Below are positions 16,947 through 55,258 of a stretch of DNA of 64,000 nucleotides, piece after piece. The stretch covers positions 8,079 to 72,078 of the forward strand of contig CAYNCK010000024.1 of assembly GCA_964396095.1 (NCBI GenBank), read 5' to 3'. Below the pieces are notes generated by a model. That model saw only the letters and a program-made list of their open reading frames with translations. It ran no database searches and had not been told where the DNA came from. Numbering within the stretch: position 1 is the first letter of the stretch; each line of letters begins with the position of its first letter. Made by a program: the position numbers and the translations under genes. The stretch is from an uncultured Methanosarcinales archaeon. GTDB lineage: Archaea; Nanobdellota; Nanobdellia; Woesearchaeales; GW2011-AR4.

Positions 16947-18491
16947 TCAAACAGAACTCTCAACAGCGGCCTTTTCTCCAATATTCTTATTCAGCTTATT
17001 GCTGTATATTAAGTTATTCTTGATCTTCCTCACAGCAGACCAGACTTTTATACCGGCTTTTTTCATTATTCCTCTTGTCGGCTTTGGAAGCCATGCCCAG
17101 TAAGCGAGTGTTCCCAAAACATTGCCGAATTCCTTTCTTGCAATGTACTTTATGACAAATTTTTCGCCAATTTCTAGAGCTTTTTTTCTGTCTTCCTGTG
17201 AGAATTCCGCAGTTTCAATTATTGGCTCTCCGTCCCAGACGCCGAGGTTATTCTGGTATTCCTCTTCCGTCATTGTAAACCAGCCGTTCTTTTTTGCAAT
17301 GTCATAAAATTCAGTCCCGATATAAGGCAAGGCAGAATAAAACCTTACCTCTTCCAGTGGAAGCTCCTGCGCAAGCTTTAGCGTCTGCTTGAAATTTTCC
17401 ATGTTGTCTCCAGGCAGTCCAATTATGAAAAATCCGCCTGCAGGCAGCCCAGCTTCATGCGCAAGCTTTGCAGCCCTTTTGATTTGCTCAACTGTGGCCC
17501 CTTTTTTCATCTTGTTCAAAACATCCTGCACTCCTGACTCAATTCCAAAAGCAATGTAAATGCACCCTGCCTTTTTCATCTTCTGGAACAATTCAAGATC
17601 AGTCTTGTCAACCCTGATTCCGTTTCTCAAGTCCCACTCTATTTTCAAGCCTTTTTCCACAATAAGGTCGCATATTTTCTTGACGCGATTCATGTCAAAA
17701 TTAAATACATCATCATTGAATGCAAATCTTCTGTACCCGTAATTCTTATACCAGTGCTCAAGCTCGTTTGCAACATTTTCAGGAGACCTTGCCCGAAAAG
17801 TTCTTCCCATTGTGAGAAATATTGAGCAGAAAATGCAGCGATGAGGGCAGCCCCTTGATGTGACGATAGGTAGTTTCTTGTCCATGTATTCCTTGAGTTC
17901 GAATAAGTCAAACGCAGGCCTTGGAAGCTCGTCAAGGTTGTCAAGGAAAGGCCTTTCAGCATTAAGCACAAATTCATTTCCTTTCTTGAATCCTATGCCA
18001 AGAATATTCTCCAATGGCATACCTTCCAGAATTTCCTTCAGGCCCATTTCCCCTTCCCTTAAAACAGCAATGTCTGCGCCGGATTGTTTAAGCACTTCTT
18101 TTATTGTCGCAGAAGTGTGGGGTCCTCCGATTAAGACCTTAATATTGCTGCCGAGTTTTTTTACTTCCTTGATAAGCACGTAAACATCGTCATGCCCCTG
18201 CGTCACGGTTGTAGTTGCAAAAAAATCCGGCCTGAATTTTTTAACATAGTCAATGACATACTTGTCGTCATATCCAAATCTCATGTCAATTATTTTTGTT
18301 TCATATCCGCACAAGTCCCTTGAAACTCCTGCCAAAATTGCAATTCCGTAATGGGGGGAAGTTGGCTTGCCCATGATGCCGACAAGTCCGGGAATCACAA
18401 AAAGAATCTTCCCTTTGATTGAGGGAGCATGCAGCAAAACAGACTGTTCAGTAGAAACTTTATGCATAGGCGCATTATTGTTATCTTCCAT
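16947..18491 (-). CDS. B12-binding-domain radical SAM protein (class B rSAM), paralog 1
   Basis: N-terminal Rossmann-like region (KILFVIPGLVG ... VLIGGPHTS), the cluster motif TSRGCPHRCIFCS, then GIESG and FIIGLPGD. Confidence 0.85.
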   Translation of the reverse strand: MEDNNNAPMHKVSTEQSVLLHAPSIKGKILFVIPGLVGIMGKPTSPHYGIAILAGVSRDLCGYETKIIDMRFGYDDKYVIDYVKKFRPDFFATTTVTQGHDDVYVLIKEVKKLGSNIKVLIGGPHTSATIKEVLKQSGADIAVLREGEMGLKEILEGMPLENILGIGFKKGNEFVLNAERPFLDNLDELPRPAFDLFELKEYMDKKLPIVTSRGCPHRCIFCSIFLTMGRTFRARSPENVANELEHWYKNYGYRRFAFNDDVFNFDMNRVKKICDLIVEKGLKIEWDLRNGIRVDKTDLELFQKMKKAGCIYIAFGIESGVQDVLNKMKKGATVEQIKRAAKLAHEAGLPAGGFFIIGLPGDNMENFKQTLKLAQELPLEEVRFYSALPYIGTEFYDIAKKNGWFTMTEEEYQNNLGVWDGEPIIETAEFSQEDRKKALEIGEKFVIKYIARKEFGNVLGTLAYWAWLPKPTRGIMKKAGIKVWSAVRKIKNNLIYSNKLNKNIGEKAAVESSV

Positions 18492-18601
18492 TTTATTGTA
18501 TGAACAAGCCTATTATAGTTTATAAACATTTCTACCTACGGCTCACAAAAATAACTATTTTGCTATTAGAGAATATGCATTCAGTTTATTAGTAAATGTA
18601 T

Positions 18602-19774
18602 TTACTTCATCTTTTTCAAAGAATTATTTAATTTTAATGCTATCCTGCCCCATGTGCTTTCCTTAAGGTTTTTTCTGTAATTTATCTTTCCTTTGGAAAT
18701 CTGCGCTTTGATTTTTTTTACCATGTCATTTTTGTCATCCGGATTGCAGAGGCTTCCCTTGTAATTTCCCAAAATGAATTCAACATCACCGAGACGTGTA
18801 GCAACTATAGGGGTGTTGCATGCCATGTACTCAACAACCTTGTATGGGAAGCAGTATTTTGTGAAGTCATTTTCCCTGTTTGGCACAACGCATACATCTG
18901 CCGCATTGATCAGCATAGCAACTTTATTCTGCGGCAATGAGCCGAGATATTTAACCCCTTCCTGGGTTAAATCAGGCTCGTTGGCTTTTCCTTTAGTAAA
19001 AAATCCCCTTATCAGATGCAAAAATTTCTGAAAGTCATTGTATCTAAGGCTTGTATCGCTTCCTTTTCCGTAAACAAATCTTCCCGCAATAACCAGCTTA
19101 AGGTTTTTTATTTCTGTTTTCAGTTCCCTGAATGTTTCAATCAGCAAATCTATCCCTTGCCTTGTCTGGATGCTTCCCGTGTACGCGATTATTTTTTCAT
19201 CCTTAAATCCAAAAGCTTTCCTGCATTTTTTCCTGTCCATCGGCCTGAACAATCCCGTGTCAACTCCGTTTTGTATTACTACAACATCTTTTTTTCTTAT
19301 AGAGCCGAGTTTGTTTTTCAACGAATTGCTTACAGTAGTAATCATGCCTGCGTTCTTGACAACATGGCTGTCAAGAACCCTGTAAAACGGAATCCTGAAC
19401 ATGTCGTATGTCTCATAATTATCGTGCAGGTCATAAACAAGCCTTACATTGTATTTTTTTGAGTAGAAATAGCCTATAGCTCCCCATAAAGGGTCGCTTG
19501 TAGCAATAATGAAATCATATTTTTCATTTCTTAACTTATTGTTTAATTCCCTTAAAAAACTTAGAAAATAAAAAAAACTGAATGGCCTTATTGAGACATA
19601 AATGCCGTGCAGCTTCAAATCCTTAGTTTCAAATTTCCTGTAATCAGCAACAAGAAAATCAATATCATTGTCCAGCTCTTTTAATGCGCTAAAAAGCCTG
19701 GTTTGCCTGCCAAAATCCTCGTCTATTATGTCTCTTGTTGCAGTATACCTGCTTGTAAGAACAAGTATTTTCAT
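18602..19774 (-). CDS. Glycosyltransferase, GT-B fold (GT4-like)
   Basis: MKILVLTSRY, IAYTGSIQTRQGIDLLIE and VCVVPNRENDFTKYCFPYKVVEYMACNTPIVATRLGD. Confidence 0.75.
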   Translation of the reverse strand: MKILVLTSRYTATRDIIDEDFGRQTRLFSALKELDNDIDFLVADYRKFETKDLKLHGIYVSIRPFSFFYFLSFLRELNNKLRNEKYDFIIATSDPLWGAIGYFYSKKYNVRLVYDLHDNYETYDMFRIPFYRVLDSHVVKNAGMITTVSNSLKNKLGSIRKKDVVVIQNGVDTGLFRPMDRKKCRKAFGFKDEKIIAYTGSIQTRQGIDLLIETFRELKTEIKNLKLVIAGRFVYGKGSDTSLRYNDFQKFLHLIRGFFTKGKANEPDLTQEGVKYLGSLPQNKVAMLINAADVCVVPNRENDFTKYCFPYKVVEYMACNTPIVATRLGDVEFILGNYKGSLCNPDDKNDMVKKIKAQISKGKINYRKNLKESTWGRIALKLNNSLKKMK

Positions 19775-19775
19775 C

Positions 19776-20660
19776 TTACTTCCTGTTCATATCCGCTATA
19801 AACCCGAATATAATTATCTGCAGGCCAAGGCTTAAAACCAGCACGTCTAGCATCATGAGGCCAAGATGCCTGAATGCGCCGTTTCCAAAAAACTGGAAGT
19901 AAACAAGATAAAGCCCGAGAACAAATCCAACAAAAAATATCATACTGCCCACAATCCCAAAAAATTTCAGAGGCTCAAAATCCCGGTATACTCTTATTAG
20001 GTTAATGAAAGCCCTTACTGCGTACCCAAACGGGTTGGAGATGAGCCTGCTCTTGTCTTTTCTTTTTGCGAAATAAATAGGGACTTCCTTTATCCTGAAT
20101 TTCTCCTTTACTGCCCTTATTATCTGCTCCTGAGTATAGGTATGAGTTGAATTTATCTTCACATTTTCAGCAACCTCCCTTGTAAAAGCCCTAAAGCCGG
20201 TCTGCGCGTCAGAAATACTGATTCCAGTTATCTGCGAGACAACCTTTGAAAAAGCAATGTTGCCCAGCCTTTTTACAAGAGGCATCTGCTCTATTGTTCC
20301 TAAGAACCTGCTTCCAAGCACCATGTCATAGCCATTCTTAATCTCCTTCACGAGTTTTGGAATATCCTTGGGAAGATACTGCATGTCGGCGTCAATATGC
20401 ACTATAACATCTGCCTTTTGCTCTATGCATTTTTTCAGCTCTGTTCGGAAGCACTCAGCAAGCCCGTAATTTTTTGGATGGGAAAAAACAATTGCGCCTG
20501 CCTTTTTTGCAGCGTTTCTGGTGTTGTCAGTGCTCCCGTCATCAACTACGATAATCTTGAAATTATAGCCTTTGCCTTTCAGCGATTTCTTTATCCTGCC
20601 GATTACATTGCCGATTGTATCTCCTTCATTATAGGCAGGGATTGTAACTATTACGTTCAT
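19776..20660 (-). CDS. GT2 polyprenyl-phosphate sugar synthase-like glycosyltransferase with C-terminal TM helices (GtrB/DPM1-like)
   Basis: VTIPAYNEGDTIGNVI, VVDDGSTDNT, HIDADMQY and VLGSRF. Two C-terminal hydrophobic helices, as in GtrB/ArnC. Confidence 0.85.
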   Translation of the reverse strand: MNVIVTIPAYNEGDTIGNVIGRIKKSLKGKGYNFKIIVVDDGSTDNTRNAAKKAGAIVFSHPKNYGLAECFRTELKKCIEQKADVIVHIDADMQYLPKDIPKLVKEIKNGYDMVLGSRFLGTIEQMPLVKRLGNIAFSKVVSQITGISISDAQTGFRAFTREVAENVKINSTHTYTQEQIIRAVKEKFRIKEVPIYFAKRKDKSRLISNPFGYAVRAFINLIRVYRDFEPLKFFGIVGSMIFFVGFVLGLYLVYFQFFGNGAFRHLGLMMLDVLVLSLGLQIIIFGFIADMNRK

Positions 20661-20738: not shown

Positions 20739-21452
20739 ATGACAGCAATAAAAGATTATGTTAATTTCTTCAAATTAGCAAGGAAAAGGGAAAGATCAAG
20801 CGATGATTATTTTGAGTTTGAAGCGTTCCAGTCATCGCTTGTAATCAGGTCGCTGAAAAAAAGAGGCATAGCCTTCAGCAAAATGAAAATTCTCGATGTA
20901 GGCTCTGGGAGAGGGGGGTATGCATCCATGCTTTCAGATGAAAATGCAAAAGTCGTGTCGCTTGACATAACAAGAGAATTTTTCCTTAAAACAAAAGCTG
21001 TTGAATTTGTGCAGGGGGACGCAGCAAGGCTTCCATTCAAATCCGATTCTTTTGATTTTGTTTTCTGCTCAAGTCTTATAGAGCACGTCAAAGATTCCGA
21101 TGAGATGGTAAATGAAATTAAGAGGGTTTTGAAAAGAGACAGGATGTGCTACCTAAGCTTCCCTCCCTTCTGGAGCCCTGTAGGCTCTCATCAGTTCAAG
21201 CCGTTCCATTATCTTGGCGAGAAAGTTGCCGTAAAGCTTTCAAGAAAATTTTACCATGTAAGAAGCCATACTTATGGTGATTATTACGGAAAATTATACA
21301 TAAGGACAATAAAACAAGTCAAAAGGATTATTATTGCGAACAATATGGAAATTCTGTCGCTTACAACAAGAATGTCGCCAATCAATTTTGCAAAAATTCC
21401 GATAGCCCGGGACTTCCTGACATGGCATGCGGAGTTTCTTATAAAAAAGTAA
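20739..21452 (+). CDS. Class I SAM-dependent methyltransferase
   Basis: Motif I ILDVGSGRGGYA, then VSLDIT and FDFVFCSSLIEHV. Confidence 0.8.
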   Translation: MTAIKDYVNFFKLARKRERSSDDYFEFEAFQSSLVIRSLKKRGIAFSKMKILDVGSGRGGYASMLSDENAKVVSLDITREFFLKTKAVEFVQGDAARLPFKSDSFDFVFCSSLIEHVKDSDEMVNEIKRVLKRDRMCYLSFPPFWSPVGSHQFKPFHYLGEKVAVKLSRKFYHVRSHTYGDYYGKLYIRTIKQVKRIIIANNMEILSLTTRMSPINFAKIPIARDFLTWHAEFLIKK

Positions 21453-21492
21453 GTTATATATACGCATTGGTTTTTCTCCGATAGGGGATTTG

Positions 21493-23604
21493 ATGTACGC
21501 TTCAAGCATTATTTTGTTCTTTTTGTATTGCTACGGGTTTGGCCTAGGTTTAGGTATGTTTGTAAAGGAATCGGAGGATTTTTTTGAAAGGCATTTGATG
21601 CGCATAGGCATTGGCCTGGGGGCAGTAGCTGCTTTTGGCTTGCTGCTGAATTTGATAAAAATTCCGCTTGACTGGAGAATTTTTACCGCAATCAGCATAG
21701 TTCCGATTATTATTTTATTATTGAAAAATCTGAAGAAGATTTCATCAGTATTTAAGGGCATAAAGCTTAACGTCTATGTCCTGGTCATGCTTGTTATATT
21801 TTTCCTGACATTGCATATGTACATGAAGGGCGCTTTTGCCTACCCTTACCTTGAAGATGATGATTCATGGAGCCATGCTGTCGGCGTGAAATATGTTTCT
21901 GTTGAGAAGACGATTTTTGACCCTGCCAACAGGATACAATACATCGATCCTTATCCTCCTTTATACGACATGCTTATAGGAATTCTTCACCAGACAAATG
22001 ACTCTGTTTTCTGGTCGCTGAAATTCTTCAACGCATTAATAATATCTCTAAGCATAATATTCTTTTATTTTTTTGCAAAGGCTTTTTCAAGCAGCTCAAA
22101 AAAGGCATTGTTTTCTACATTCATCCTTTTTTCAGTCCCCGCTTTCATGAGCCATTTCATCTGGGCAATTTCTCTAACAATGCCTTTGTTCTTTGTCGCA
22201 TTTTATGCCATTGAAAAAATAAAGGACGATAGGAAATGGATAATTGTGTCTGCAACAGTCATTGCAGCTGCCCTTACATCTTCACCATCGCACAGCACTT
22301 ATTTTGGATTGTTTTTTGTTATTTATTTTATTGTCAAAACATTGTCTGAGAAAAAATTCATGTTTTATCATTTAATTGCCTGTATTTTTGGAGTATTGCT
22401 TTCATTTGCCCTTTGGTGGCTGCCGATGATTCTTAAGCATGGTGTTGAAGCAACCCTGAGGGGGGTGGGCCTGCATGCAGGAGGCAGCGTGCTTAGCATT
22501 GGAGGGACCGGTGACAGGGTTTATTCATTTTCAGATTTTCTTTGCGGATTTGATTCTGGTTGCTATAATGGCTCCAATACAATAAACAATCCAGTCGGAA
22601 TCGGCATAGCTGTTATTTTTCTTGTTTTTGCCGCGCTGGTATTTTTTATCTATAACTCAAGGCAAGAATTGAAAAAAAGCAGGATGACCATAATCATTTC
22701 TTATGCAGTTATTGCATTGCTGATTCTATATTTTTTAGGAAGCACATACCTCAAGTATATAGACACAAAAACCACAAGAGCGTTGGCACAAGGATCTGTC
22801 CCATTTTTTGATTTTCTCTCTGAGCAAAGGTTTCTCGTCATAACTTTGCTGTTATTTGTTTTTGTGCTGTTGCTAGTTATTATTTCGCAATGGAAAAATT
22901 CAGATAAAAATTCAAGTTATATTGCTGTAGCCCTCGCATGGCTTGCTTTTGGCTTTTATGCAGTAAGCGCGGGCCCATTTGAATACAAGCTTTCATCTTT
23001 CAGGGCATGGATGATTCTTGCGATTCCGGTTTCCATAATTGCAGGGGAAGGAATTTATTTTATCCAAAGCCTTGCAAATTCAATTGCAAATGGAATTATT
23101 CGAAACAAAAATATTTCAGCTGCACTTTCTTTGATAGCGATTTGCTTGATTGCATTTGCTGTTGTAAAGACTTCATTCATCCCAAAATATAAAGTTAATA
23201 CCGCCCAGTGGGGCTCAGGGGGCTTCTGGACTTATATTCAGGACTCTTCAGGAAAAGTGACTTCTCCGGAATTAAGCGGCTATCTGTGGCTTAAGGACAA
23301 TATTCCGTCTAATGCAAAAATATTTACTTTCTCCAATGACGGAATTATAATAGGATTTGACAAGTTCATCTGCCATTGGTGCACAGATGTTGTAGAATAC
23401 CAAAAAAGCGGATTCAACCAAAGCGCTGAGGAGAATTACAACTGGCTTAAAAAGGAACAGTACCAATATATTATTATAGATGCGCAGGCAGCAAAAAAAT
23501 TTGGATATAATGAAACATCTGGCAAGCTTCGCGGATTTATAAATTCAACAAGATTCAAGCCGATTTTCGGCAATAACGGCTTTGTTATATTTGCAGTGGC
23601 CTGA
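21493..23604 (+). CDS. GT-C fold polytopic membrane glycosyltransferase (ArnT/PMT-like)
   Basis: More than 12 hydrophobic helices. Acidic first-loop motif YPYLEDDDSWSHA. C-terminal soluble region. ATG at 21493 is preferred over TTG at 21490. Confidence 0.7.
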   Translation: MYASSIILFFLYCYGFGLGLGMFVKESEDFFERHLMRIGIGLGAVAAFGLLLNLIKIPLDWRIFTAISIVPIIILLLKNLKKISSVFKGIKLNVYVLVMLVIFFLTLHMYMKGAFAYPYLEDDDSWSHAVGVKYVSVEKTIFDPANRIQYIDPYPPLYDMLIGILHQTNDSVFWSLKFFNALIISLSIIFFYFFAKAFSSSSKKALFSTFILFSVPAFMSHFIWAISLTMPLFFVAFYAIEKIKDDRKWIIVSATVIAAALTSSPSHSTYFGLFFVIYFIVKTLSEKKFMFYHLIACIFGVLLSFALWWLPMILKHGVEATLRGVGLHAGGSVLSIGGTGDRVYSFSDFLCGFDSGCYNGSNTINNPVGIGIAVIFLVFAALVFFIYNSRQELKKSRMTIIISYAVIALLILYFLGSTYLKYIDTKTTRALAQGSVPFFDFLSEQRFLVITLLLFVFVLLLVIISQWKNSDKNSSYIAVALAWLAFGFYAVSAGPFEYKLSSFRAWMILAIPVSIIAGEGIYFIQSLANSIANGIIRNKNISAALSLIAICLIAFAVVKTSFIPKYKVNTAQWGSGGFWTYIQDSSGKVTSPELSGYLWLKDNIPSNAKIFTFSNDGIIIGFDKFICHWCTDVVEYQKSGFNQSAEENYNWLKKEQYQYIIIDAQAAKKFGYNETSGKLRGFINSTRFKPIFGNNGFVIFAVA

Positions 23605-24367: not shown

Positions 24368-24420
24368 GCCTGAGTTTTAATGAATGTTTAAAAATATTGT
24401 GAAAATGAAATAATCATTCA

Positions 24421-28649: not shown

Positions 28650-28680
28650 TATTTAAAACACAAGAGAGGTGCTTTTCAAG

Positions 28681-38855: not shown

Positions 38856-38899
38856 TTTGTTTTGAAATAATTGAAAGAGAGATACACACAACATCTGCC

Positions 38900-39308: not shown

Positions 39309-39319
39309 ACACAATAAAA

Positions 39320-41732: not shown

Positions 41733-41937
41733 GTCGCTTTCGCTAAAACATCATGGCTTCTCCGCTGCAAGTCACCTCCAAGAAAATTTTGCAATGAAAG
41801 TGAATAAAAATCTCAGGAAAACATGCAGTTGAATATAAATTAAATAATTAAGTCATCTGCGGCATATCCTTTCCAAAAACCAAATCTTTTATAAATCAAC
41901 ATAAGTTCTTTCACATAGTTTAGTGGGGTTTTATTTC

Positions 41938-49905: not shown

Positions 49906-51401
49906 AAAAATTCAGCGAGCTGGATAAATGCAAGAAGCATTCGATTATTGTAATTGTAATGTTCTCTTTAATTGTATTATCCTTAACTTCTGCCTATCAC
50001 GTTTCAGGTGATGGGTGCTGGCACATCCCTGCTGCAAGGTTCATTGCTGAAAACAAAAAATTCCCGCTGTTCGAGCCTCTTGGAAGGGACGAGCCATTCT
50101 GGAGCCCTCCATTGTATCATATTTTTGCCGCAGCTGTTTACGGAATTTTCAACAGCATCAGCCATAATGCAGCGGATTTTGCAGTAAAATTTGTTTCACC
50201 TGTTTTTGGTATAATGTCATTAATATTATCTTTTTTAATAATTAATAAATTATTTAAATCCAAAATTGCATTTTACTCAGCAATTTTCCTTGCATTTGTT
50301 CCAATATTCATAGACTACGGCATTTTGAGCTATGTGGAAAGCACGCTCACCTTTTTTGTTTTGCTGAGCATTTATTTCCTTTTAGAAGACAAGGTTGTTT
50401 TGTCAGGAATTGCAGCAGGGTTGTCAGTTCTTGCAAAATACAACGGATTATTCATCCTTCCACTTCTGATTTACCTGATTTATAAGAAATCAGATAATAA
50501 AAAAATATTCTATAAAAAATCCATTACACTTCTATTTATTGCAATTGCCGTTTCATCCCCCTGGCTAATAAGGAACTGGATTTTGCTTGGAAATCCAATC
50601 TGGCCGTTCCTTAACTTCGTATTCCACGGCTTTGCGCCAAAATCATATTCAGCGGCAAATTTTTCATATATTCTGCATCCAAACACAATAATATTTACCT
50701 ATCTTGGAGTTTTTGGAGTCCCAGACGGGAATTACCATTCAATTTCATATTTTAACCTGCCTTACATGAATATTTTGCTGATTGTATGGCTGGCAGGAAC
50801 GCTTATTTTTTTCACGCCATTGATTTTAGGAATTTTCAGAATTATAAATGACAGAAAAAATAAAATAAGAAAAATTCTATCCATGTGGATTATTCCATTT
50901 ATATTGCTCTTCTTGCTTTATATCATTAATGTAGGCTGGTCAGTTTCAAGAATAATTCTTCCTGCATTTCCTGCAATAGCCGTTTTCTGGGCAGTCGGAT
51001 TTAAAAAATTTGCATCCATTTCAAAATCAAAATTAATTCTGGTTTTGTTTATTTTGGTTATTGCCGGGCTGGTTTCGTCAGAAATAATAAAATTTAGTTT
51101 TGCTGCACATGAATGGGATAAGTACGAACTAGATTTTAATTGGGTTAAATCAAATACCAATTCAGGTTCTATTTTCATCGCAAACGGCCAGTGCGTCCCT
51201 TATAACATAGAAAGAACATCGTTATATGCAACTGATGAAAATATTAAAGAAGCAGATTACATCTGGGTTAACCAGAACTTCAATCTTGACAAGGTGTCAA
51301 TTTACGACGATAAAGCATTAAGCTTCATCAAGTCCCAGAATTATAAAATTGAATACAGAAACAAAAATACAGGAACTATAATTTATTCAACTAAACAATG
51401 A
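49902..51401 (+). CDS. GT-C fold membrane glycosyltransferase (GT39/83-like)
   Basis: ATGA-coupled to the GT4 gene. About 12 helices. First-loop motif GRDEPFWSPPLYH. Short C-terminal soluble domain. Confidence 0.75.
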   Translation: MKKFSELDKCKKHSIIVIVMFSLIVLSLTSAYHVSGDGCWHIPAARFIAENKKFPLFEPLGRDEPFWSPPLYHIFAAAVYGIFNSISHNAADFAVKFVSPVFGIMSLILSFLIINKLFKSKIAFYSAIFLAFVPIFIDYGILSYVESTLTFFVLLSIYFLLEDKVVLSGIAAGLSVLAKYNGLFILPLLIYLIYKKSDNKKIFYKKSITLLFIAIAVSSPWLIRNWILLGNPIWPFLNFVFHGFAPKSYSAANFSYILHPNTIIFTYLGVFGVPDGNYHSISYFNLPYMNILLIVWLAGTLIFFTPLILGIFRIINDRKNKIRKILSMWIIPFILLFLLYIINVGWSVSRIILPAFPAIAVFWAVGFKKFASISKSKLILVLFILVIAGLVSSEIIKFSFAAHEWDKYELDFNWVKSNTNSGSIFIANGQCVPYNIERTSLYATDENIKEADYIWVNQNFNLDKVSIYDDKALSFIKSQNYKIEYRNKNTGTIIYSTKQ

Positions 51402-52350
51402 ATTTTGGCCTGAAAAGGTATTTCTCGGAAAAAATATTCAATATATAATAATCATCAGCTTTTCTCAGCTTTTGGGCGTGTTTTCTCTTTTTCAATATAA
51501 AATTGAAATTAAAAATTACAAATAAAATTGCCTTTATCCTGGCAAATGCCAAATCAAGCCTTAAGGTAATAAGATCCTTTACGACTGCAATAAACCTTAA
51601 AAGCAAGACATAAGGCAGATACATAAGAATATTCTTCCATGATAAAACCTTGAAAAATGTAGTGAGCAGGTTCCTTTCCATCAGGTAAGCGGAAAATGAT
51701 TTGCTTGATTTCTGCATTGTAACAGCATGCATATGGTGCAACACAGCATCAGGGGCAAAAACGACCTTTTTTGCAAGGAGCCTTATCCTTAATCCCAGGT
51801 CAACATCCTCTGCATAAATAAAATAGTCCGGGTCGAACAAATAGCCAAATTTTTCAACAAAATCCTTTCTTACCAATCCAACTCCAAGGTATGGAATCTC
51901 TTTTATTTCATTATTTTTATTTCCTTTTATGTGCCCGTTGTAAAATGCCCGTGAAATCCATGTTCCTCCTGATTCCAGCTTTTTATGGTAAAAATTTACA
52001 AGCTTCGGCGCAGCCATTGCAATATTTTTTGCATTAATCGCCTTTACAAGATTTTCAATGCAGTTCTTGTCAATCTCCATGTCGTTGTTGAGAAATAAAA
52101 TATACTCGCCTTTGCAGAACTTCAATGCAGAATTTATCCCCGAATATCCGAGGTTTTTTTTATTTTGGACCAATCTAACATTTCTGAAATTTTTTTTCAG
52201 AAATTCCTGGCTTCCATCACTTGAGTTATTGTCTACAATTATTATCTCAAAATTCTTATAATTTGACTTTTCAAGCGAAGAAATAATTCTTTTTAGGAGG
52301 TTTTTCCCGTTGTAATTCACTATTAATGCTGAAACAAGCCCTTTTTTCAT
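51391..52350 (-). CDS. Glycosyltransferase family 2 (non-DPM1 subtype)
   Basis: VSALIVNYNGKNLL, IIVDNNSSDGS and LFLNNDMEI, with a C-terminal hydrophobic segment. Confidence 0.8.
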   Translation of the reverse strand: MKKGLVSALIVNYNGKNLLKRIISSLEKSNYKNFEIIIVDNNSSDGSQEFLKKNFRNVRLVQNKKNLGYSGINSALKFCKGEYILFLNNDMEIDKNCIENLVKAINAKNIAMAAPKLVNFYHKKLESGGTWISRAFYNGHIKGNKNNEIKEIPYLGVGLVRKDFVEKFGYLFDPDYFIYAEDVDLGLRIRLLAKKVVFAPDAVLHHMHAVTMQKSSKSFSAYLMERNLLTTFFKVLSWKNILMYLPYVLLLRFIAVVKDLITLRLDLAFARIKAILFVIFNFNFILKKRKHAQKLRKADDYYILNIFSEKYLFRPKFIV

Positions 52351-52880
52351 TTCTTGGCAACCTTCATAGTGAAGTCTATTTTTAATATAATCTCGCCAAG
52401 AAGGTAGCTTACCAAATGCCTCAGGTCAATCACATTTGGAAACAATGACTTTGGAACAGGCAACGGCGGAATAATCCATCCTATTTTTGACGGAATCAAT
52501 TTTATTTTTCCCATAATGAACCCGGGATATGAGTCATAGCTCCTCTTTTTTTCTGTGAAAAATTTCATCCCGTCAATATTGAAGAAATAATTATGATTTG
52601 GATAAAAAGCTCCTGAAGAATGCCAGTAAGGCACGATAATCCTGACAATTGCATTGTTTTTGCAAATCCTTCTGATTTCCTGCATTGCACTGAACAAATC
52701 ATTAACATGCTCAATTACATCCTGCCCGTACACTTCATCAAAATAACTGCTTGGGAAAGGCCACGGGTACTTGTCAAGGTCGTGAACAACATCAACTCCC
52801 TTATGTCTTGACTTGTCCAGATTAACATAGCCTTTTCTAATGTCCATTCCGCATCCGAGATTTAGTTTTCTTGGCTTCAT
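52347..52880 (-). CDS. Class I SAM-dependent methyltransferase
   Basis: LNLGCGMDIRKGYVNLD and FDEVYGQDVIEHV. 4-nt overlaps with both neighbours. Confidence 0.7.
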   Translation of the reverse strand: MKPRKLNLGCGMDIRKGYVNLDKSRHKGVDVVHDLDKYPWPFPSSYFDEVYGQDVIEHVNDLFSAMQEIRRICKNNAIVRIIVPYWHSSGAFYPNHNYFFNIDGMKFFTEKKRSYDSYPGFIMGKIKLIPSKIGWIIPPLPVPKSLFPNVIDLRHLVSYLLGEIILKIDFTMKVAKK

Positions 52881-53593
52881 TCTATCTTATATTTTTTCCA
52901 TCTTTTTGTTGAAAGGCTCATGTCAACCGTCAACATGGGCCCTTTGTATTCCTGCAAAGTCATCTTACCCACATTTTTTGAGCCTGCAAGCACAGCCAAT
53001 TCATGCATGCTCATTCTTTTGCTGCCTACAATATGCACTATGCCCTTTATTTTCTTCTTGCATACATCCAAAATTCCATCTGCAACATTGTCGCTGAACA
53101 GATAAGTGCCAAACCTGTCAACAAATGCTTTAGGGTATTTCCACTGCCCTTTTGGCACAAAATTAGTTCTTATGATGCATGTGTTTTCATATTGCCTTGA
53201 AACAATCTCTCCGCATAATTTTGTGATTGAATAGTAATTTTTAGGTGAAGGAGCATCGTCTTCTGTGTAATATTTTTCTTTTTCACCTGAAAAAACACAT
53301 GCGGTTGACATGTAAATCAGATAGCAGTTGTTGTTCAGCTTTTTTAAGGCATTCACGATATTTTGAGTGCCTTCGGCATTTGTGAGCCATGCCTTTTCCT
53401 TATTTTCTTCGCATTCCCTTATTCCAACCAATGCAGCAGTATGTATCAGGATTTCAGGCTCGTACTTCAATATAATCTTATTCACAGAATCAGTAATATC
53501 CATTTCTTTATGAATTGGGAAATATGCATCTTTGAAAACTTTTTTCAATGATTTCCCTAATGCACCGCTTCCGCCAGTTACAAGCACTTTCAT
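52877..53593 (-). CDS. RmlD-like sugar-nucleotide reductase/epimerase (SDR)
   Basis: MKVLVTGGSGALGKSL, IHTAAL and YSITKLCGE (YxxxK); 238 aa. Confidence 0.7.
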   Translation of the reverse strand: MKVLVTGGSGALGKSLKKVFKDAYFPIHKEMDITDSVNKIILKYEPEILIHTAALVGIRECEENKEKAWLTNAEGTQNIVNALKKLNNNCYLIYMSTACVFSGEKEKYYTEDDAPSPKNYYSITKLCGEIVSRQYENTCIIRTNFVPKGQWKYPKAFVDRFGTYLFSDNVADGILDVCKKKIKGIVHIVGSKRMSMHELAVLAGSKNVGKMTLQEYKGPMLTVDMSLSTKRWKKYKIE

Positions 53594-53713
53594 AAAGCAT
53601 AAAGTACAATATTGCCCTTTTTAAAGCTTGTTGGAAATAGGGCGTTACACTAAAGTCATCAAAATATCAAAACAAAAACCTTTAAATAGGCATTACTTCC
53701 CTTTATTTCATAA

Positions 53714-55258
53714 ATGAATGAGGGAAAAGAACAGCTGGATTTCGTATTTATTTCTACAGCTTCTGATATACAGTGTTACAGCATCAGGAGAGTGTCTGCG
53801 TATTTGAAAAAGCACGGGTTCAAAACTAAAATGGTATTTTTGCCGCAGCCTTTTTCCAAGCGGTATTCCGATCAAGTGCTTGAGCAAGTTGTGGACATAT
53901 CAAAGGATGCAAAACTAATTGGCATCTCTCTTATGAGCAACTACTGGCACAATGCGGTTCAGCTGATTAAATCTCTCAGGAGCAAATCCGATTCTTTAAT
54001 CATAGGCGGGGGCCCTCACCCAAGCACAAATCCCGACCAATGCCTGGAGGAAGTCGATATGATATGTGTTGGGGAAGGGGATGACACTTTGCTTGAGCTT
54101 ATGAAGAGGATTAAAGCCGGCATTACAGACTACTCAGGAATACCCAACCTGCAGTATAAGCAGAACGGCCAGATTATAAAAAATACGCAGGAGCTTTTTG
54201 AAAAATCAGACGAAATTCCGATTCCTGATTATGACCTTGAAGATCATTTTGTTCTTTTTGAAAACAAGATACAGCCAATGACTTACGACTTGTTCAGGTG
54301 TTTTCACGGCCACGATTACATGACGATTTTTGCTTTTGGCTGCCCTTATACATGCAGCTACTGCATTCATAATATATACAATAAAAGGTTTAAGTTTAGG
54401 TTCAGGAAGAGGCCGGTTAAAAATGTGATTGAAGAGCTTAAGTATGTCAAGCAAAAATTCCCTTTCATCAACAGGCTAAGGATTGAAGATGACACTTTCT
54501 TCTTTTACAGCAAGGAGGAAATGGAATATTTCAGGGATGAGTTCAAGAAATATATCAATATTCCGATTTATGTCTGCGGCGGCCAGCCAATGGTGATTAA
54601 AGAGGAATTGATGAAGCCGATGGTTGAGGCAGGCATGAACAGGATAAGGATGGGCATAGAGACTGGTGCAGAAAGAATACAAGCCATGTACCAAAGAGTC
54701 ATATCAAACAAGAAAATACTTGAAGCCTGTAAAGTAATAAACAAATTCAAGGAAGTAACAGTGACATACGATTTTATAACAGATAATCCTTGGGAGACGG
54801 AAGAGGAAACTTTGCATACACTTAAGTTTATTCTTGAGATTCCGCATCCTTACAGCTTAAGCGTTTTTTCACTTACATTTTACCCAAACACGGACATACA
54901 CCTTCAGGCTATTGCCGATGGCATAGTGAAGAAAGATGAGGATACCCTTGCAAAGCATTATTGGGGTGTCAAGAATAATTACCTGAATCTGATGTACTAT
55001 CTTTGTGATGTCAGGTGGATTCCAACAAGATTCAAGGCATTTTTGCTGAACGACAATGTGAGGAATTCCAAATTCAAGCCCATCATTATGGCTTTCCTAA
55101 GATTAAACAGGATTGTGAAGAACAGGAGCTCCTTGTTCAAGTACTTATGGAGTTATGTTACGGAATTGGATTACACAAGAATTAAATTCTCCATAAAAAA
55201 ATATTATAATGACTACAAGTACTATTATTCATTAAAAAGCAATGTGCTTGGAAACTAG
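53714..55258 (+). CDS. B12-binding-domain radical SAM protein, paralog 5
   Basis: N-terminal Rossmann-like region (LIIGGGPHPS ... ICVGEGD), FAFGCPYTCSYCIHN and GIETG. Confidence 0.8.
   Translation: MNEGKEQLDFVFISTASDIQCYSIRRVSAYLKKHGFKTKMVFLPQPFSKRYSDQVLEQVVDISKDAKLIGISLMSNYWHNAVQLIKSLRSKSDSLIIGGGPHPSTNPDQCLEEVDMICVGEGDDTLLELMKRIKAGITDYSGIPNLQYKQNGQIIKNTQELFEKSDEIPIPDYDLEDHFVLFENKIQPMTYDLFRCFHGHDYMTIFAFGCPYTCSYCIHNIYNKRFKFRFRKRPVKNVIEELKYVKQKFPFINRLRIEDDTFFFYSKEEMEYFRDEFKKYINIPIYVCGGQPMVIKEELMKPMVEAGMNRIRMGIETGAERIQAMYQRVISNKKILEACKVINKFKEVTVTYDFITDNPWETEEETLHTLKFILEIPHPYSLSVFSLTFYPNTDIHLQAIADGIVKKDEDTLAKHYWGVKNNYLNLMYYLCDVRWIPTRFKAFLLNDNVRNSKFKPIIMAFLRLNRIVKNRSSLFKYLWSYVTELDYTRIKFSIKKYYNDYKYYYSLKSNVLGN

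What the first reader, a model, noticed from the sequence alone, without database searches (positions are those of the whole stretch)
16947..55258. Four-fold iteration of a GT2 (polyprenyl-P-sugar synthase-like) + class I methyltransferase + GT-C transferase + B12-binding radical SAM gene set
The same four protein types recur together four times across the island.
- Set 1: rSAM 16947-18491(-), GT2 19776-20660(-), MTase 20739-21452(+), GT-C 21493-23604(+).
- Set 2: GT2 23624-24367(-), MTase 24421-25131(-), GT-C 25132-26859(-), rSAM 26987-28492(-), plus a divergent second rSAM 28681-30096(+).
- Set 3: GT2 30772-31506(+), MTase 31678-32241(+), YfhO-like GT-C 34232-36505(+), SDR 36508-37410(-), rSAM 37407-38855(-).
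- Set 4: GT2 48049-48765(+), GT-C 49902-51401(+), MTase 52347-52880(-), SDR 52877-53593(-), rSAM 53714-55258(+).
Pairs of a DPM1/GtrB/Alg5-like GT2 with a GT-C enzyme are the established route for decorating surface polymers outside the membrane via polyprenyl-phosphate sugars (GtrB/GtrC, ArnC/ArnT, Dpm1/PMT, CsbB/YfhO). That paradigm does not explain the constant companionship of a SAM methyltransferase and a cobalamin-type radical SAM enzyme. All five rSAMs have an N-terminal Rossmann-like B12-domain-like region. All five carry a CxxxCxxC motif: CPHRCIFC, CPLTCSYC, CPYQCIFC, CPYGCGYC, CPYTCSYC. Class B rSAMs typically methylate or rearrange unactivated carbons (Fom3, GenK, HpnP/HpnR, GDGT-MAS). 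A plausible reading is a family of modules that each make, chemically tailor and export a distinct lipid-linked sugar. The tailoring could be C- or O-methylation or another modification of the sugar or its lipid carrier. I know of no characterised system with this composition.
Basis: partly seen in the sequence, partly recalled or inferred. Interest (0 to 1): 0.85.

Follow-up and report, generated by a model that had tools for sequence, protein, structure and literature searches.

The report
Radical-SAM enzymes embedded in surface-sugar gene island
A tiny-genome archaeon (Woesearchaeota-like) carries a 60-kb surface-sugar gene island with five vitamin-B12-type radical enzymes next to methyltransferases and lipid-linked sugar transferases, a pairing that recurs in many uncultured microbes and that I could not find described or tested.

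Summary
Pfam, a structure model and motif checks confirm five B12-binding-domain radical SAM (rSAM) proteins, four DPM1/GtrB/AglJ-like GT2s, four class I methyltransferases (MTs) and at least five GT-C membrane transferases.

"Four-fold iteration" overstates the case. The paralogs are ancient (23-36% identity), their trees are not parallel, and the five rSAMs fall in five different subfamilies. Only set 2 is a tight four-gene operon.

The association itself is real and widespread. In 26 genomes with close rSAM1 homologues, 20 have a GT2 nearby, 21 a GT-C-like protein, 17 an MT and 20 another rSAM paralog. One 15-kb metagenome locus holds six rSAM genes. The hosts are DPANN, CPR, Omnitrophota, Planctomycetota, Methanosarcinales and others. 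GT4 genes are equally frequent neighbours, so the link is to glycan assembly in general. Three independent rSAM::MT fusion proteins tie those two enzymes together.

No rSAM reaches any curated family cut-off. The nearest relatives are QCMT, AprD4 and a probable lipid methylase, Gmm.

Most likely these are cytoplasmic radical tailoring enzymes, probably C-methylases, acting on sugars of lipid-linked glycan intermediates. The chemistry is unproven. I rate it a new variant of a known kind.

The parts
16947..18491 (-). rSAM1: B12-binding-domain radical SAM protein (514 aa)
   Evidence: Pfam hits PF04055 at 96.8 bits and PF02310 at 63.6 bits. Motif CPHRCIFC at residue 215. AlphaFold model pLDDT 90.3, with Foldseek top hits QCMT, AprD4, TsrM, OxsB, CysS and TokK. 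It belongs to a 54-member subfamily among the fetched loci.
18602..19774 (-). GT4 glycosyltransferase, between rSAM1 and GT2_1
   Evidence: Pfam Glycos_transf_1 and Glyco_transf_4.
19776..20660 (-). GT2_1: AglJ/Dol-P-hexose-synthase-like GT2 with two C-terminal TM helices
   Evidence: PF00535 at 96.8 bits. Best NCBIfam hits are AglJ at 160 bits (cut-off 325), Dol-P-hexose transferase, PpgS and ArnC. TM helices.
20739..21452 (+). MT1: class I SAM methyltransferase
   Evidence: PF08241 at 71.9 bits. Only generic hits in NCBIfam.
21490..23604 (+). GTC1: GT-C fold membrane glycosyltransferase (704 aa, about 13 TM)
   Evidence: AlphaFold pLDDT 91. Foldseek hits are STT3, DPY19, AglB, ArnT and ALG12, with E values down to 1e-9. 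The loop motif YPYLEDDDPW has invariant E122 and D125. Family members hit DUF6541, PMT_2 and PMT.
23624..24367 (-). GT2_2: short soluble DPM1/GtrB-like GT2; last gene of the set-2 operon
   Evidence: PF00535 at 103.9 bits. Nearest solved relatives are Pyrococcus DPMS 5MLZ and GtrB 5EKP, then ArnC.
24421..25131 (-). MT2: class I SAM methyltransferase
   Evidence: PF08241 at 72.5 bits. It abuts GTC2 with a 0-bp gap.
25132..26859 (-). GTC2: PMT_2-type GT-C transferase
   Evidence: PF13231 at 53.4 bits (cut-off 26.1). About 9 TM helices.
26987..28492 (-). rSAM2: B12-binding-domain radical SAM protein; first gene of the operon rSAM2-GTC2-MT2-GT2_2
   Evidence: PF04055 at 74 bits and PF02310 at 45.5 bits. 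In its subfamily (L076, L078, L080, L085) 5 of 5 members have an MT and a GT2 within 3 kb. P0167 is an MT fusion in this subfamily.
28669..30096 (+). rSAM2b: B12-binding-domain radical SAM protein, divergent from rSAM2
   Evidence: PF04055 at 95.4 bits and PF02310 at 81.5 bits. It is 37% identical to Archaeoglobaceae proteins that sit in a gms-gmm-like pair.
30772..31506 (+). GT2_3: short DPM1/ArnC-like GT2
   Evidence: PF00535 at 72.5 bits. NCBIfam top hits are ArnC and Dol-P-hexose transferase.
31657..32241 (+). MT3: class I SAM methyltransferase
   Evidence: PF08241 at 44.7 bits. Homologues of 33-36% identity occur in the loci of rSAM1-type genes: next to the rSAM in L010, and about 5.6 kb from it in L009.
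32779..34248 (+). UDP-GlcNAc 2-epimerase-like protein
   Evidence: PF02350 at 131 bits.
34232..36505 (+). GTC3: YfhO/PTPS_related-type GT-C candidate (757 aa)
   Evidence: The protein itself is sub-threshold (YfhO 23.7 bits). Most Woesearchaeota homologues carry PF09586 and/or PF10131.
36508..37410 (-). SDR3: NAD-dependent epimerase/dehydratase-family SDR, overlapping rSAM3 by 4 nt
   Evidence: PF01370 at 98.5 bits. Coordinates.
37407..38894 (-). rSAM3: radical SAM protein with a weak B12-type N-terminal domain
   Evidence: PF04055 at 89.2 bits. PF02310 at 30.0 bits, below the 32.1 cut-off. AprD4 ranks third in NCBIfam at 142 bits.
41923..43575 (+). Unclassified 10-TM membrane protein (possible additional GT-C or polymerase)
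   Evidence: No Pfam or NCBIfam hit. TM count and a weak BLAST hit to GTC1.
44234..45862 (-).
   Evidence: DUF6541 at 39.2 bits and PMT_2 at 28.8 bits (cut-off 26.1).
48049..48765 (+). GT2_4: short DPM1/AglJ-like GT2
   Evidence: PF00535 at 96.5 bits. NCBIfam top hits are AglJ, PgfS and PpgS.
48895..49905 (+). GT4 glycosyltransferase
   Evidence: Pfam.
49902..51401 (+). GTC4: PMT_2-type GT-C transferase
   Evidence: PF13231 at 54.9 bits.
51391..52350 (-).
   Evidence: PF00535 at 91.5 bits. NCBIfam hits. It overlaps MT4 by 4 nt.
52347..52880 (-). MT4: short class I methyltransferase (177 aa, N-terminal LNLGCG motif)
   Evidence: PF08241 at 33.4 bits. It is intact, with a full-length homologue in L036.
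52877..53593 (-). SDR4: RmlD-like reductase
   Evidence: PF04321 at 115.5 bits.
53714..55258 (+). rSAM4: B12-binding-domain radical SAM protein, the most divergent paralog
   Evidence: PF04055 at 68.3 bits and PF02310 at 55.3 bits. It is 23-25% identical to the other four.
55304..56599 (+). UDP-glucose/GDP-mannose dehydrogenase, downstream of rSAM4
   Evidence: Pfam. The same rSAM-UGDH adjacency occurs in L001.
14071..16902 (-). DegT aminotransferase, hexapeptide acetyltransferase and GFO/MocA oxidoreductase (WbpE/WbpD/WbpB-like trio), upstream of rSAM1
   Evidence: Pfam.

Best explanation
The window is a surface-glycan biosynthesis island of a DPANN (Woesearchaeota-like) archaeon.

Proposed mechanism:
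- Four DPM1/GtrB/AglJ-like GT2 enzymes load single sugars onto dolichyl or polyprenyl phosphate at the cytoplasmic face.
- Five or six GT-C enzymes transfer lipid-linked sugars to a surface glycan or glycoprotein outside the membrane.
- The five class-B-type radical SAM proteins and the class I methyltransferases are soluble cytoplasmic tailoring enzymes of the same pathways.
- The rSAM and the MT act on the same intermediate, since in other organisms they are fused into one polypeptide.
- That intermediate is most likely a sugar already attached to a lipid carrier. ArnD and the PpgS-pathway deacetylase act at this stage, and MoeK5, GenK and GenD1 C-methylate non-nucleotide-linked sugars.
- The most likely chemistry is methylation of an unactivated sugar carbon by the rSAM, plus O- or N-methylation by the MT.

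The cassettes are not recent copies of one another. They are members of an old, diversified and horizontally mobile toolkit that several lineages stack in multiple copies.

Shown: domain and fold assignments, cross-genome co-location, the fusions, and the absence of any curated family match.

Inferred: the substrate, the stage of action, the chemistry and cobalamin use.
For: Family and fold assignments.

Organism: rSAM1 and GTC3 homologues of 66-81% identity are from Woesearchaeota.

Conserved context around rSAM homologues:
- L001: PMT-rSAM-MT-GT2-SDR.
- L006: GT2-PMT-GT2-MT-GT4-rSAM.
- L089: rSAM-MT-GT2-SDR-SDR-DegT.
- L091: GT2-NTP transferase-SDR-SDR-DegT-rSAM.
- L090: six rSAM genes with a GT2 and a PMT_2.

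Systematic scan of 80 species genomes:
- Among 26 loci with at least 39% identity to rSAM1, a GT2 is present in 20, a GT-C-like protein in 21, an MT in 17, another rSAM in 20 and an SDR in 15.
- MT density falls with distance from the rSAM: 32, 11, 12 and 6 genes per successive 2.5-kb bin.
- 31 of 80 loci have at least 2 rSAM genes and 15 have at least 3.

Fusions B12-binding+Radical_SAM+Methyltransf_11:
- L036:9995-12229 (Omnitrophota) and L031:10001-12076 (archaeon), confirmed by Pfam.
- P0167 in the rSAM2 subfamily.

The rSAMs and MTs have no TM segments.

The nearest relatives with known chemistry include C-methylases: QCMT 9CCB and a probable Gmm.
Against: - No rSAM reaches any NCBIfam cut-off. 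The best hit, HpnJ, scores 100-204 bits against a cut-off of 577, so the chemistry is not assignable.
- AprD4 has the highest structural TM-score (0.68-0.78). It is a non-cobalamin dehydratase, not a methylase.
- GT4 genes flank the rSAMs about as often as GT2 genes do: 24 versus 25 of 124. The link is therefore to glycan assembly in general, not specifically to GT2/GT-C pairs.
- Within the window, only the four-type span and GT2-MT adjacency exceed permutation expectation.
- No GtrA- or ArnE/F-type flippase was found in the three small ORFs of the core island that I tested.
- I measured no genome-wide background for neighbourhood enrichment.
- DPANN archaea are not known to make cobalamin (general knowledge).
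Confidence: 0.55

Rival explanations
1. Radical deoxygenation rather than methylation. At least rSAM3 (with SDR3) and perhaps rSAM4 (with SDR4) work like AprD4/AprD3. In that system a radical SAM 1,2-diol dehydratase that needs no cobalamin removes a sugar hydroxyl, and an NAD(P)H-dependent reductase finishes the step, giving a deoxy sugar.
For: - rSAM3 and SDR3 overlap by 4 nt, which indicates translational coupling.
- rSAM3 has the weakest B12-domain score, 30.0 bits, below the cut-off.
- AprD4 ranks third for rSAM3 in NCBIfam at 142 bits.
- AprD4 is the second-best sequence hit and has the best TM-score for the rSAM1 model.
- SDR genes are present in 15 of 26 close loci.
Against: - The AprD4 model cut-off (500 bits) is far from met.
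- The other four rSAMs have good B12-binding domain scores of 45-82 bits.
- SDR genes are ordinary members of every nucleotide-sugar pathway. They show no distance decay from the rSAM.
- SDRs flank rSAMs directly in only 8 of 124 cases.
Confidence: 0.15
2. Isoprenoid-lipid modification. Some or all of the rSAMs methylate or cyclise isoprenoid chains, as Gmm and GrsA/B do on tetraether lipids. The target would be membrane lipids taken from the host or the dolichol carrier itself. Their position in a glycan island would then reflect shared lipid substrates.
For: - Window rSAM2b, rSAM3 and rSAM2 are 32-37% identical to Archaeoglobaceae B12-rSAMs with no glycan genes nearby.
- In L066 that gene overlaps an upstream AhbD-like SPASM rSAM and lies next to HMG-CoA reductase.
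- This is the gms-gmm arrangement reported for the GMGT methylase (PMC11214058).
- That paper lists a few DPANN Gmm homologues.
Against: - No SPASM rSAM and no lipid-synthesis gene lies in the window.
- The same rSAM subfamilies sit in glycan clusters of bacteria whose phyla are not known tetraether-lipid (GDGT) producers, such as Saccharibacteria, Omnitrophota, Planctomycetota and Elusimicrobia (general knowledge for the lipids; loci).
- Glycan-context homologues are as close or closer, at 35-38%.
- That the L066 protein is Gmm is an inference from synteny, not a sequence comparison with Tg-Gmm.
Confidence: 0.12
3. Protein or peptide modification. The rSAMs C-methylate a surface protein (S-layer protein or pilin) before export, as QCMT and Mmp10 do on MCR and PoyC and ApyD do on peptides. 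The PMT_2-type GT-C enzymes then O-glycosylate the same protein outside the membrane.
For: - QCMT is the best sequence and Foldseek hit.
- ApyD and RiPP C-methyltransferase models score 60-170 bits.
- PMT-family GT-Cs are protein O-mannosyltransferases in eukaryotes and actinobacteria (established knowledge).
Against: - No candidate precursor peptide or S-layer gene was identified beside the rSAMs.
- The conserved neighbours are nucleotide-sugar enzymes and glycosyltransferases.
- The curated cut-offs are not met.
Confidence: 0.06
4. Coincidental co-location. The rSAM and MT genes are unrelated passengers in a large, variable island, and the 'sets' are an artefact of grouping abundant gene types.
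For: - Within the window most pairwise adjacencies are not better than permutation.
- The sets as drawn skip a GT2, a GT-C and two GT4 genes.
Against: - The context recurs in dozens of unrelated genomes.
- Most rSAM-GT pairs are co-directional and within 400 bp.
- There are three independent rSAM::MT fusions.
- The Archaeoglobi subfamily serves as an internal negative control. My HMMs called no GT2, GT-C or SDR there, and an MT in only one of those loci (L057).
Confidence: 0.04

Closest known systems
Three-component polyprenyl-P-sugar decoration systems (GtrA/B/C, ArnC/D/E/F/T, PpgS/Rv3779, AglD/AglR/AglS, CsbB/YfhO)
   Same: - A DPM1-like GT2 is paired with a GT-C transferase.
- In Arn and PpgS the sugar is tailored (deformylated or deacetylated) while on the lipid carrier.
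- L089 and L091 also carry the ArnB-like DegT aminotransferase and SDR steps.
   Different: - None of these systems contains a radical SAM enzyme.
- No GtrA- or ArnE/F-type flippase was found here.
- Here several such pairs are stacked with five rSAM paralogs.
B12-radical SAM sugar C-methyltransferases of antibiotic pathways (GenK, GenD1 with the N-methyltransferase GenN; MoeK5 of moenomycin)
   Same: - They share the class B rSAM architecture.
- They act on sugars that are already glycosidically or lipid-linked rather than nucleotide-activated.
- They work alongside class I methyltransferases, GFO-type oxidoreductases and DegT aminotransferases (known from the literature, partly via PMC12931638 and PMC11214058).
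   Different: - Those are secondary-metabolite enzymes of actinomycetes.
- Sequence similarity to the TokK/CysS-type methylases is very low, at 24-27 bits.
- No GenK or MoeK5 sequence was available for direct comparison.
AprD4/AprD3 (radical SAM sugar 1,2-diol dehydratase plus reductase)
   Same: - AprD4 is the best structural superposition for the rSAM1 model, with TM 0.68-0.78.
- It acts on a sugar.
- It pairs with a reductase, as rSAM3 does with SDR3.
   Different: - AprD4 does not bind cobalamin (PMC12931638).
- Its NCBIfam cut-off is not met.
- It belongs to an aminoglycoside pathway.
HpnJ (with the GT2 HpnI) and BchE (with the methyltransferase BchM)
   Same: - These are the top NCBIfam similarities for all five rSAMs.
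- HpnJ rearranges a sugar that a GT2 has attached to a lipid.
- BchE acts after a class I MT has methyl-esterified its substrate.
   Different: - Scores are 100-204 bits against cut-offs of 481-578.
- No hopanoid or bacteriochlorophyll genes are present.
- Ring contraction would make the product non-transferable by a GT-C enzyme.
Gmm, the GMGT lipid methylase of archaea (PMC11214058)
   Same: - It is a B12-binding rSAM.
- Archaeoglobaceae proteins in a gms-gmm-like gene pair are 28-37% identical to the window rSAMs.
- It C-methylates an unactivated sp3 carbon.
   Different: - The substrate is an isoprenoid chain.
- It is partnered with a SPASM rSAM (Gms), which is absent from the window.
- The window context is glycan, not lipid.

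Membership tests
Class B (cobalamin-type) radical SAM enzymes | CxxxCxxC cluster motif inside a Radical_SAM (PF04055) TIM-barrel domain | tested here: met
   All five proteins meet it. Motifs lie at residues 210-242. PF04055 scores are 68-97 bits.
Class B (cobalamin-type) radical SAM enzymes | N-terminal Rossmann-type B12-binding domain (PF02310) | tested here: met
   Four score 45-82 bits against a cut-off of 32.1. rSAM3 scores 30.0, marginally below. The rSAM1 model superposes on QCMT, TsrM, OxsB, TokK and CysS.
Class B (cobalamin-type) radical SAM enzymes | Actual binding and use of cobalamin | not testable with these tools
   AprD4 has a related N-terminal domain but binds no cobalamin (PMC12931638). 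The domain alone therefore does not prove cobalamin use.
Any named NCBIfam rSAM family (HpnJ, BchE, PhpK, AprD4, QCMT, HpnR, ladderane rSAM, TIGR04295, and others) | Whole-protein score at or above the curated cut-off | tested here: not met
   The best hit is HpnJ at 100-204 bits against a cut-off of 577.6. No model is passed by any of the five.
Polyprenyl/dolichyl-phosphate sugar synthases (DPM1, GtrB, ArnC, AglJ, PpgS) | GT-A fold GT2 domain, closest to known members of this group rather than to chain-extending GT2s | tested here: met
   For GT2_1 to GT2_4 the top NCBIfam hits are mainly AglJ, Dol-P-hexose transferase, ArnC, PgfS and PpgS; for GT2_2 PgaC and EpsD rank above ArnC. For GT2_2 the best solved relatives are DPMS 5MLZ and GtrB 5EKP. 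GT2_5 instead resembles EpsD and PglI.
Polyprenyl/dolichyl-phosphate sugar synthases (DPM1, GtrB, ArnC, AglJ, PpgS) | Curated equivalog cut-off and membrane anchoring | tested here: not met
   No curated cut-off is reached; the best is AglJ at 160 bits against 325. Only GT2_1 has C-terminal TM helices. Soluble members such as PpgS and human DPM1 exist, so this does not exclude the function.
GT-C glycosyltransferases | Polytopic membrane protein with the GT-C fold and an acidic motif in the first outer loop | tested here: met
   GTC2, GTC4 and GTC5 pass PMT_2. The GTC1 model matches only GT-C structures and has invariant E122 and D125. GTC3 is supported only through its homologues' YfhO and PTPS_related hits. 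The protein at 41923-43575 is unassigned.
Gtr/Arn-type three-component decoration system | Small flippase (GtrA or ArnE/F type) encoded with the GT2 and the GT-C | tested here: inconclusive
   The three small ORFs of the core island that I tested (38911-39312, 40825-41319, 43556-43921) have no Pfam hit. A Wzx-type flippase lies at 10593-12047. I did not search ORFs below 100 aa.
AprD4/AprD3-like deoxygenation pair | rSAM dehydratase next to its reductase, and membership of the AprD4 family | tested here: inconclusive
   The adjacency is met for rSAM3 and SDR3, which overlap by 4 nt. The AprD4 model scores 53-144 bits against a cut-off of 500.
Gmm (GMGT methylase) | Gene paired with an AhbD-like SPASM rSAM (gms), and placement in the Gmm clade | tested here: not met
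   No SPASM rSAM is in the window. Clade placement could not be tested because no Tg-Gmm sequence was available.

The most novel reading that the evidence does not exclude
A widespread and so far unstudied class of surface-glycan tailoring. B12-type radical SAM enzymes, working with (and sometimes fused to) a class I methyltransferase, install C-methyl or other radical-derived modifications on lipid-carrier-linked sugars before GT-C enzymes export them. Episymbiotic, genome-reduced lineages (DPANN, CPR) and other anaerobes stack three to six divergent copies. This would generate unusual, variable surface sugars relevant to host attachment or virus evasion, and it would imply a cobalamin demand in organisms that cannot make the cofactor.
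Probability: 0.3. Interest if true: 0.78.

Novelty: new variant of a known kind. Interest (0 to 1): 0.62.

Why it matters
DPANN archaea and CPR bacteria live attached to other cells, and their surfaces are almost unknown chemically. Here a small genome spends five large iron-sulfur enzymes and about 60 kb on surface sugars.

If these enzymes do radical chemistry on glycan building blocks, that would have four consequences:
- It would add a new reaction class to cell-surface glycobiology. Such enzymes are so far known only from antibiotic, cofactor and lipid pathways.
- It would assign a role to a large block of the unannotated "B12-binding radical SAM" proteins in metagenomes. There were 7,140 relatives of rSAM1 at E<=1e-20 among the candidates scored.
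- It would predict a cobalamin dependence of the symbiont on its community.
- It would offer new biocatalysts for C-methyl or deoxy sugars.

The compact operon 23624-28492 and the natural rSAM::MT fusions give directly testable constructs.

Tried and rejected
1. Exact-sequence look-up of rSAM1 to find the source contig found nothing on record. I inferred the organism from homologues instead.
I repeated it with the closer set A2.
3. Module-wise co-duplication is rejected. Quartet scores favour ((1,4),(2,3)) for the GT2s. That grouping is the worst for the rSAMs, and the MTs are star-like. Clustering puts the five rSAMs in five subfamilies.
4. I considered MT4 and SDR4 as truncated remnants. This is rejected: MT4 has an N-terminal LNLGCG motif and a full-length homologue in L036.
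5. I considered GTC1 as a Wzy/EpsG-type polymerase because of a weak EpsG hit. This is rejected by the structure search.
6. I considered the GFO + DegT genes next to rSAM1 as a GenD2/GenS2-like garosamine route. The ordinary WbpB/WbpD/WbpE reading is simpler, given the hexapeptide acetyltransferase, UGDH and 2-epimerase in the island.
7. 'MT is the immediate partner of the rSAM' holds only partly. MT is enriched within 2.5 kb and sometimes fused, but GT2 and GT4 are more often the directly flanking genes.
8. jackhmmer within the fetched loci found no homologues for GTC3, GTC5 or 41923-43575.
9. Seven literature searches for a described rSAM + GT2/GT-C system found nothing relevant. The one paper returned for all terms (PMC6423787) was unrelated.
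10. tRNA scan: none found.

Full report
**What is in the window**

The 64-kb window has about 37% G+C and no tRNA genes. From about 4 kb to 63.4 kb, with few interruptions, it is a glycan-biosynthesis island. Pfam annotation of essentially every ORF of at least 100 aa finds the following.

- Nucleotide-sugar genes:
  - two NTP-transferases
  - two UDP-glucose/GDP-mannose dehydrogenases
  - several SDR epimerases/dehydratases
  - a DegT aminotransferase, a hexapeptide acetyltransferase and a GFO/MocA oxidoreductase, which together form a WbpE/D/B-like trio
  - a UDP-GlcNAc 2-epimerase
- A Wzx-type flippase.
- Three GT4 genes and one GT9 gene.
- SGNH and MBOAT acyltransferases.
- The genes named in the finding.

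The closest homologues of two of its proteins are from Candidatus Woesearchaeota, at 79% identity for rSAM1 and 40-47% for named homologues of the YfhO-like protein. The source is therefore a DPANN archaeon. The identical proteins are on record from one 77.6-kb NCBI contig.

**Check of the observation**

All five rSAM proteins carry PF04055.

Four pass the B12-binding domain model. rSAM3 falls just short, at 30.0 bits against a cut-off of 32.1.

An AlphaFold model of rSAM1 built on 53 homologues has pLDDT 90.3. It superposes on the solved class B enzymes MgmA/QCMT, TsrM, OxsB, CysS and TokK, and on AprD4.

For the four short GT2s, the best NCBIfam hits are mostly polyprenyl-phosphate sugar synthases: AglJ, Dol-P-hexose transferase, ArnC, PgfS and PpgS. 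The nearest solved relatives of GT2_2 are Pyrococcus DPMS and GtrB. No curated cut-off is reached.

The four methyltransferases are generic Methyltransf_11 proteins.

For the GT-C claims:
- Two proteins pass PMT_2.
- The 704-aa protein at 21490-23604 had only a weak EpsG hit. Its model (pLDDT 91) matches only GT-C enzymes: STT3, DPY19, AglB, ArnT and ALG12. Its family has an invariant acidic loop motif.
- The 757-aa protein at 34232-36505 is supported through its homologues, most of which carry YfhO and/or PTPS_related.

**Is it a four-fold iteration?**

Only in a loose sense.

- Paralogs are old: rSAMs are 23-36% identical, GT2s 28-35%, MTs 27-33%, and the GT-Cs are barely alignable.
- Quartet scores are not parallel. 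The GT2s favour ((1,4),(2,3)), which is the worst grouping for the rSAMs. The MTs are star-like.
- Clustering 121 rSAMs from the window and from other genomes puts the five window proteins in five different subfamilies.
- Where homologues were retrieved, each paralog (rSAM1, rSAM2, rSAM2b, rSAM4) is closer to proteins in other genomes than to its window paralogs. rSAM1 has 40-53% homologues in Methanosarcinales, Hydrothermarchaeota and Parcubacteria. rSAM3 clustered alone.
- The island has therefore accumulated different members of an old toolkit rather than duplicating a module in place.
- In a permutation of the 38-gene order, the smallest span holding all four types around each GT2 is shorter than expected (P=0.012). 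GT2-MT adjacency gives P=0.037. The rSAM-GT2, rSAM-GT-C and rSAM-MT distances are not significant.

The clean case is set 2. rSAM2, GTC2, MT2 and GT2_2 lie on one strand with gaps of 127, 0 and 53 bp.

**Evidence from other genomes**

This is where the finding gains weight. Gene neighbourhoods of rSAM1 and rSAM2 homologues retrieved with precomputed Pfam annotation are all glycan clusters with the same ingredients:

| Locus | Source | Gene order or content |
|---|---|---|
| L001 | related DPANN genome | PMT, rSAM, MT, short GT2, SDR |
| L003 | Ca. Hydrothermarchaeum | three rSAMs with GT2s, GT4s, PMT_2, MT |
| L006 | 2-Mb metagenome contig | GT2, PMT, GT2, MT, GT4, rSAM |
| L089 | GCA_040961635.1 | rSAM, MT, GT2, SDR, SDR, DegT |
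| L091 | Nitrospinales | GT2, NTP-transferase, SDR, SDR, DegT, rSAM |
| L090 | JGI metagenome | six B12-rSAM genes in 15 kb with a GT2 and a PMT_2 |

A scan of one genome per species returned 80 loci. They come from Woesearchaeota, Nanoarchaeota, Aenigmatarchaeota, Micrarchaeota, Methanosarcinales, Archaeoglobi, Parcubacteria, Saccharibacteria, Omnitrophota, Planctomycetota, Elusimicrobia, Chloroflexota, Myxococcota and others.

I annotated them with HMMs iterated from the window's own paralogs. The main counts:

| Measure | Result |
|---|---|
| 26 loci with at least 39% identity to rSAM1 and at least 8 kb of flank: GT2 present | 20 |
| Same 26 loci: GT-C-like protein present | 21 |
| Same 26 loci: MT present | 17 |
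| Same 26 loci: further rSAM paralog present | 20 |
| Same 26 loci: SDR present | 15 |
| All 80 loci: at least two rSAM genes | 31 |
| All 80 loci: at least three rSAM genes | 15 |
| MT genes per successive 2.5-kb bin from the rSAM | 32, 11, 12, 6 |

The other families are flat over 10 kb, because the clusters are larger than that.

Direct flanking genes within 400 bp of the 124 rSAM genes are GT2 (25), GT4 (24), another rSAM (23), MT (16), PMT_2 (10) and SDR (8). Most are co-directional with the rSAM. The rSAMs are thus embedded in glycosyltransferase operons in general, not only beside GT2/GT-C pairs.

The Archaeoglobi loci act as a built-in negative control. My HMMs called no GT2, GT-C or SDR there, and an MT in only one of them (L057).

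I did not measure a genome-wide background. The fold-enrichment therefore rests on general expectations of GT density. This is a stated gap.

**Gene fusions**

Two focal rSAMs of the rSAM1 subfamily are single ORFs with B12-binding, Radical_SAM and Methyltransf_11 domains:
- L036:9995-12229, 744 aa, from an Omnitrophota bacterium.
- L031:10001-12076, 691 aa, from an archaeon.

Their MT parts are most similar to window MT1 and MT2.

A third fusion, P0167 (756 aa), lies in the rSAM2 subfamily.

Independent fusions in two subfamilies and two domains of life are good evidence that the rSAM and the class I MT act in one pathway on one substrate.

A Planctomycetia MT is fused to a polysaccharide deacetylase domain (L027). 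Deacylases act on the lipid-linked sugar in the Arn and PpgS pathways, so this hints at amino-sugar substrates.

**What the rSAMs might do**

None of the five reaches any curated NCBIfam cut-off. HpnJ is always the top hit, at 100-204 bits against 577.6. BchE, ApyD, PhpK, AprD4 and the ladderane rSAM follow.

The nearest solved proteins by sequence are:
- 9CCB at 91 bits. This is the MCR glutamine C-methyltransferase, identified through PMC12931638.
- AprD4 at 84 bits. This is a sugar 1,2-diol dehydratase that, according to the same review, does not bind cobalamin.

The TokK/CysS-type methylases are distant, at 24-27 bits.

One lead to a characterised relative comes from the Archaeoglobaceae members of my locus set. 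They are 28-37% identical to the window rSAMs.
- In L066 such a gene overlaps an upstream AhbD-like SPASM rSAM and lies next to HMG-CoA reductase.
- PMC11214058 reports the same arrangement for gms-gmm. The two genes overlap, Gms is AhbD-related, Gms is frequent in Archaeoglobi, and gmm is reported in the Archaeoglobi genera Ferroglobus and Geoglobus.
- If that protein is Gmm, the nearest functionally tested relative is a C-methylase of unactivated carbons.
- That paper also reports Gmm as 31% identical to MoeK5. From my own knowledge of the moenomycin pathway, MoeK5 is the presumed C-methylase of a lipid-linked sugar.
- The identification of the L066 protein as Gmm is an inference from synteny. 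I could not compare it with the Tg-Gmm sequence.

**Best explanation and rivals**

I consider it most likely (about 0.55) that the rSAMs and MTs are cytoplasmic tailoring enzymes of the glycan pathways encoded around them. They would act on sugars already attached to a lipid carrier. The products would be delivered outside by the GT-C enzymes or built into the flipped oligosaccharide. Methylation of an unactivated sugar carbon is the leading chemistry.

The precedents are:
- ArnC/ArnD/ArnT and PpgS/Rv3779, which tailor the sugar on the carrier.
- GenK, GenD1/GenN and MoeK5, in which B12-rSAMs and class I MTs act on non-nucleotide sugars.

The rivals are:

1. An AprD4/AprD3-like deoxygenation, especially for rSAM3 and SDR3. 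These overlap by 4 nt, and rSAM3 has the weakest B12 domain (0.15).
2. Isoprenoid-lipid or carrier methylation of the Gmm type (0.12). The glycan contexts in bacteria not known to make tetraether lipids argue against it.
3. Protein or peptide C-methylation (0.06).
4. Coincidence (0.04). The cross-genome conservation and the fusions contradict it.

**Novelty**

Seven full-text searches combining radical SAM or B12 with dolichol, polyprenyl, GT-C, glycan, DPANN or Woesearchaeota terms found no description of this association. The library lacks most subscription papers, so this is not proof.

All the parts are known kinds. The combination appears new. It comprises B12-type rSAMs as recurrent, multi-copy and sometimes MT-fused components of cell-surface glycan clusters. 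It is prominent in genome-reduced DPANN and CPR organisms.

I class it as a new variant of a known kind and score interest at 0.62. It would rank higher if the chemistry proved to be a new glycan modification.

Noticed in passing
window 39320-40409 (+): A nucleotidyltransferase (NTP_transf_2/Polbeta) ORF overlaps a weak HEPN-domain ORF. This looks like an MNT-HEPN toxin-antitoxin pair in the middle of the glycan island. It sits between set 3 and the next GT-C genes, next to three small ORFs with no family hit.
   Followed up: no
window 59364-63744: An SGNH/AlgX-like protein, a GDSL lipase-like protein with an N-terminal TM segment, an MBOAT acyltransferase and an overlapping 4'-phosphopantetheinyl transferase (ACPS) lie together. 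This resembles an AlgI/J/X- or Dlt-like extracytoplasmic acylation set. No carrier protein was seen.
   Followed up: no
L047:2034-4907 (Aenigmatarchaeota): A B12-rSAM homologue is interrupted by an intein with a LAGLIDADG homing endonuclease and HTH domains. The insertion lies between the B12 domain and the rSAM core.
   Followed up: partly
L090 (JGI 3300009105 contig), 15.5 kb: Six B12-binding radical SAM genes lie in 15 kb, together with two GT2 genes and a PMT_2 gene. This is the most extreme paralog stacking I saw.
   Followed up: no
L084:7940-12913 and L086:7940-12913 (unclassified bacteria): A 1,657-aa protein contains two B12-rSAM modules, TPR repeats and a third, SPASM-type rSAM module. 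It lies next to a 1,365-aa triple-GT2 protein and several MT genes.
   Followed up: partly
L066:8562-12543 (Archaeoglobaceae): An AhbD-like SPASM rSAM overlaps a B12-rSAM and is followed by HMG-CoA reductase. This matches the published gms-gmm (GMGT synthase/methylase) arrangement. The B12-rSAM is 28-37% identical to the window rSAMs.
   Followed up: partly
L027:18472-20211 (Planctomycetia): A Methyltransf_11 domain is fused to a Polysacc_deac_1 domain within an rSAM-containing glycan cluster.
   Followed up: no
window 2060-8224 versus L001: The window shares local content with L001 (GCA_054040355.1): NFACT_N, UGDH, NTP-transferase, and then the rSAM/GT-C/MT/GT2 genes. In L001 MutS and MutL lie directly upstream of the rSAM.
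   Followed up: no
window 8221-10618 (-), 56625-57758 (-), 47116-47958 (-): Several sizeable island ORFs remain unassigned. They are a 372-aa ORF, a 432-aa ORF with a weak NTP_transf_2 hit, a 377-aa ORF, and a 280-aa ORF with a weak PQQ-like beta-propeller hit.
   Followed up: no
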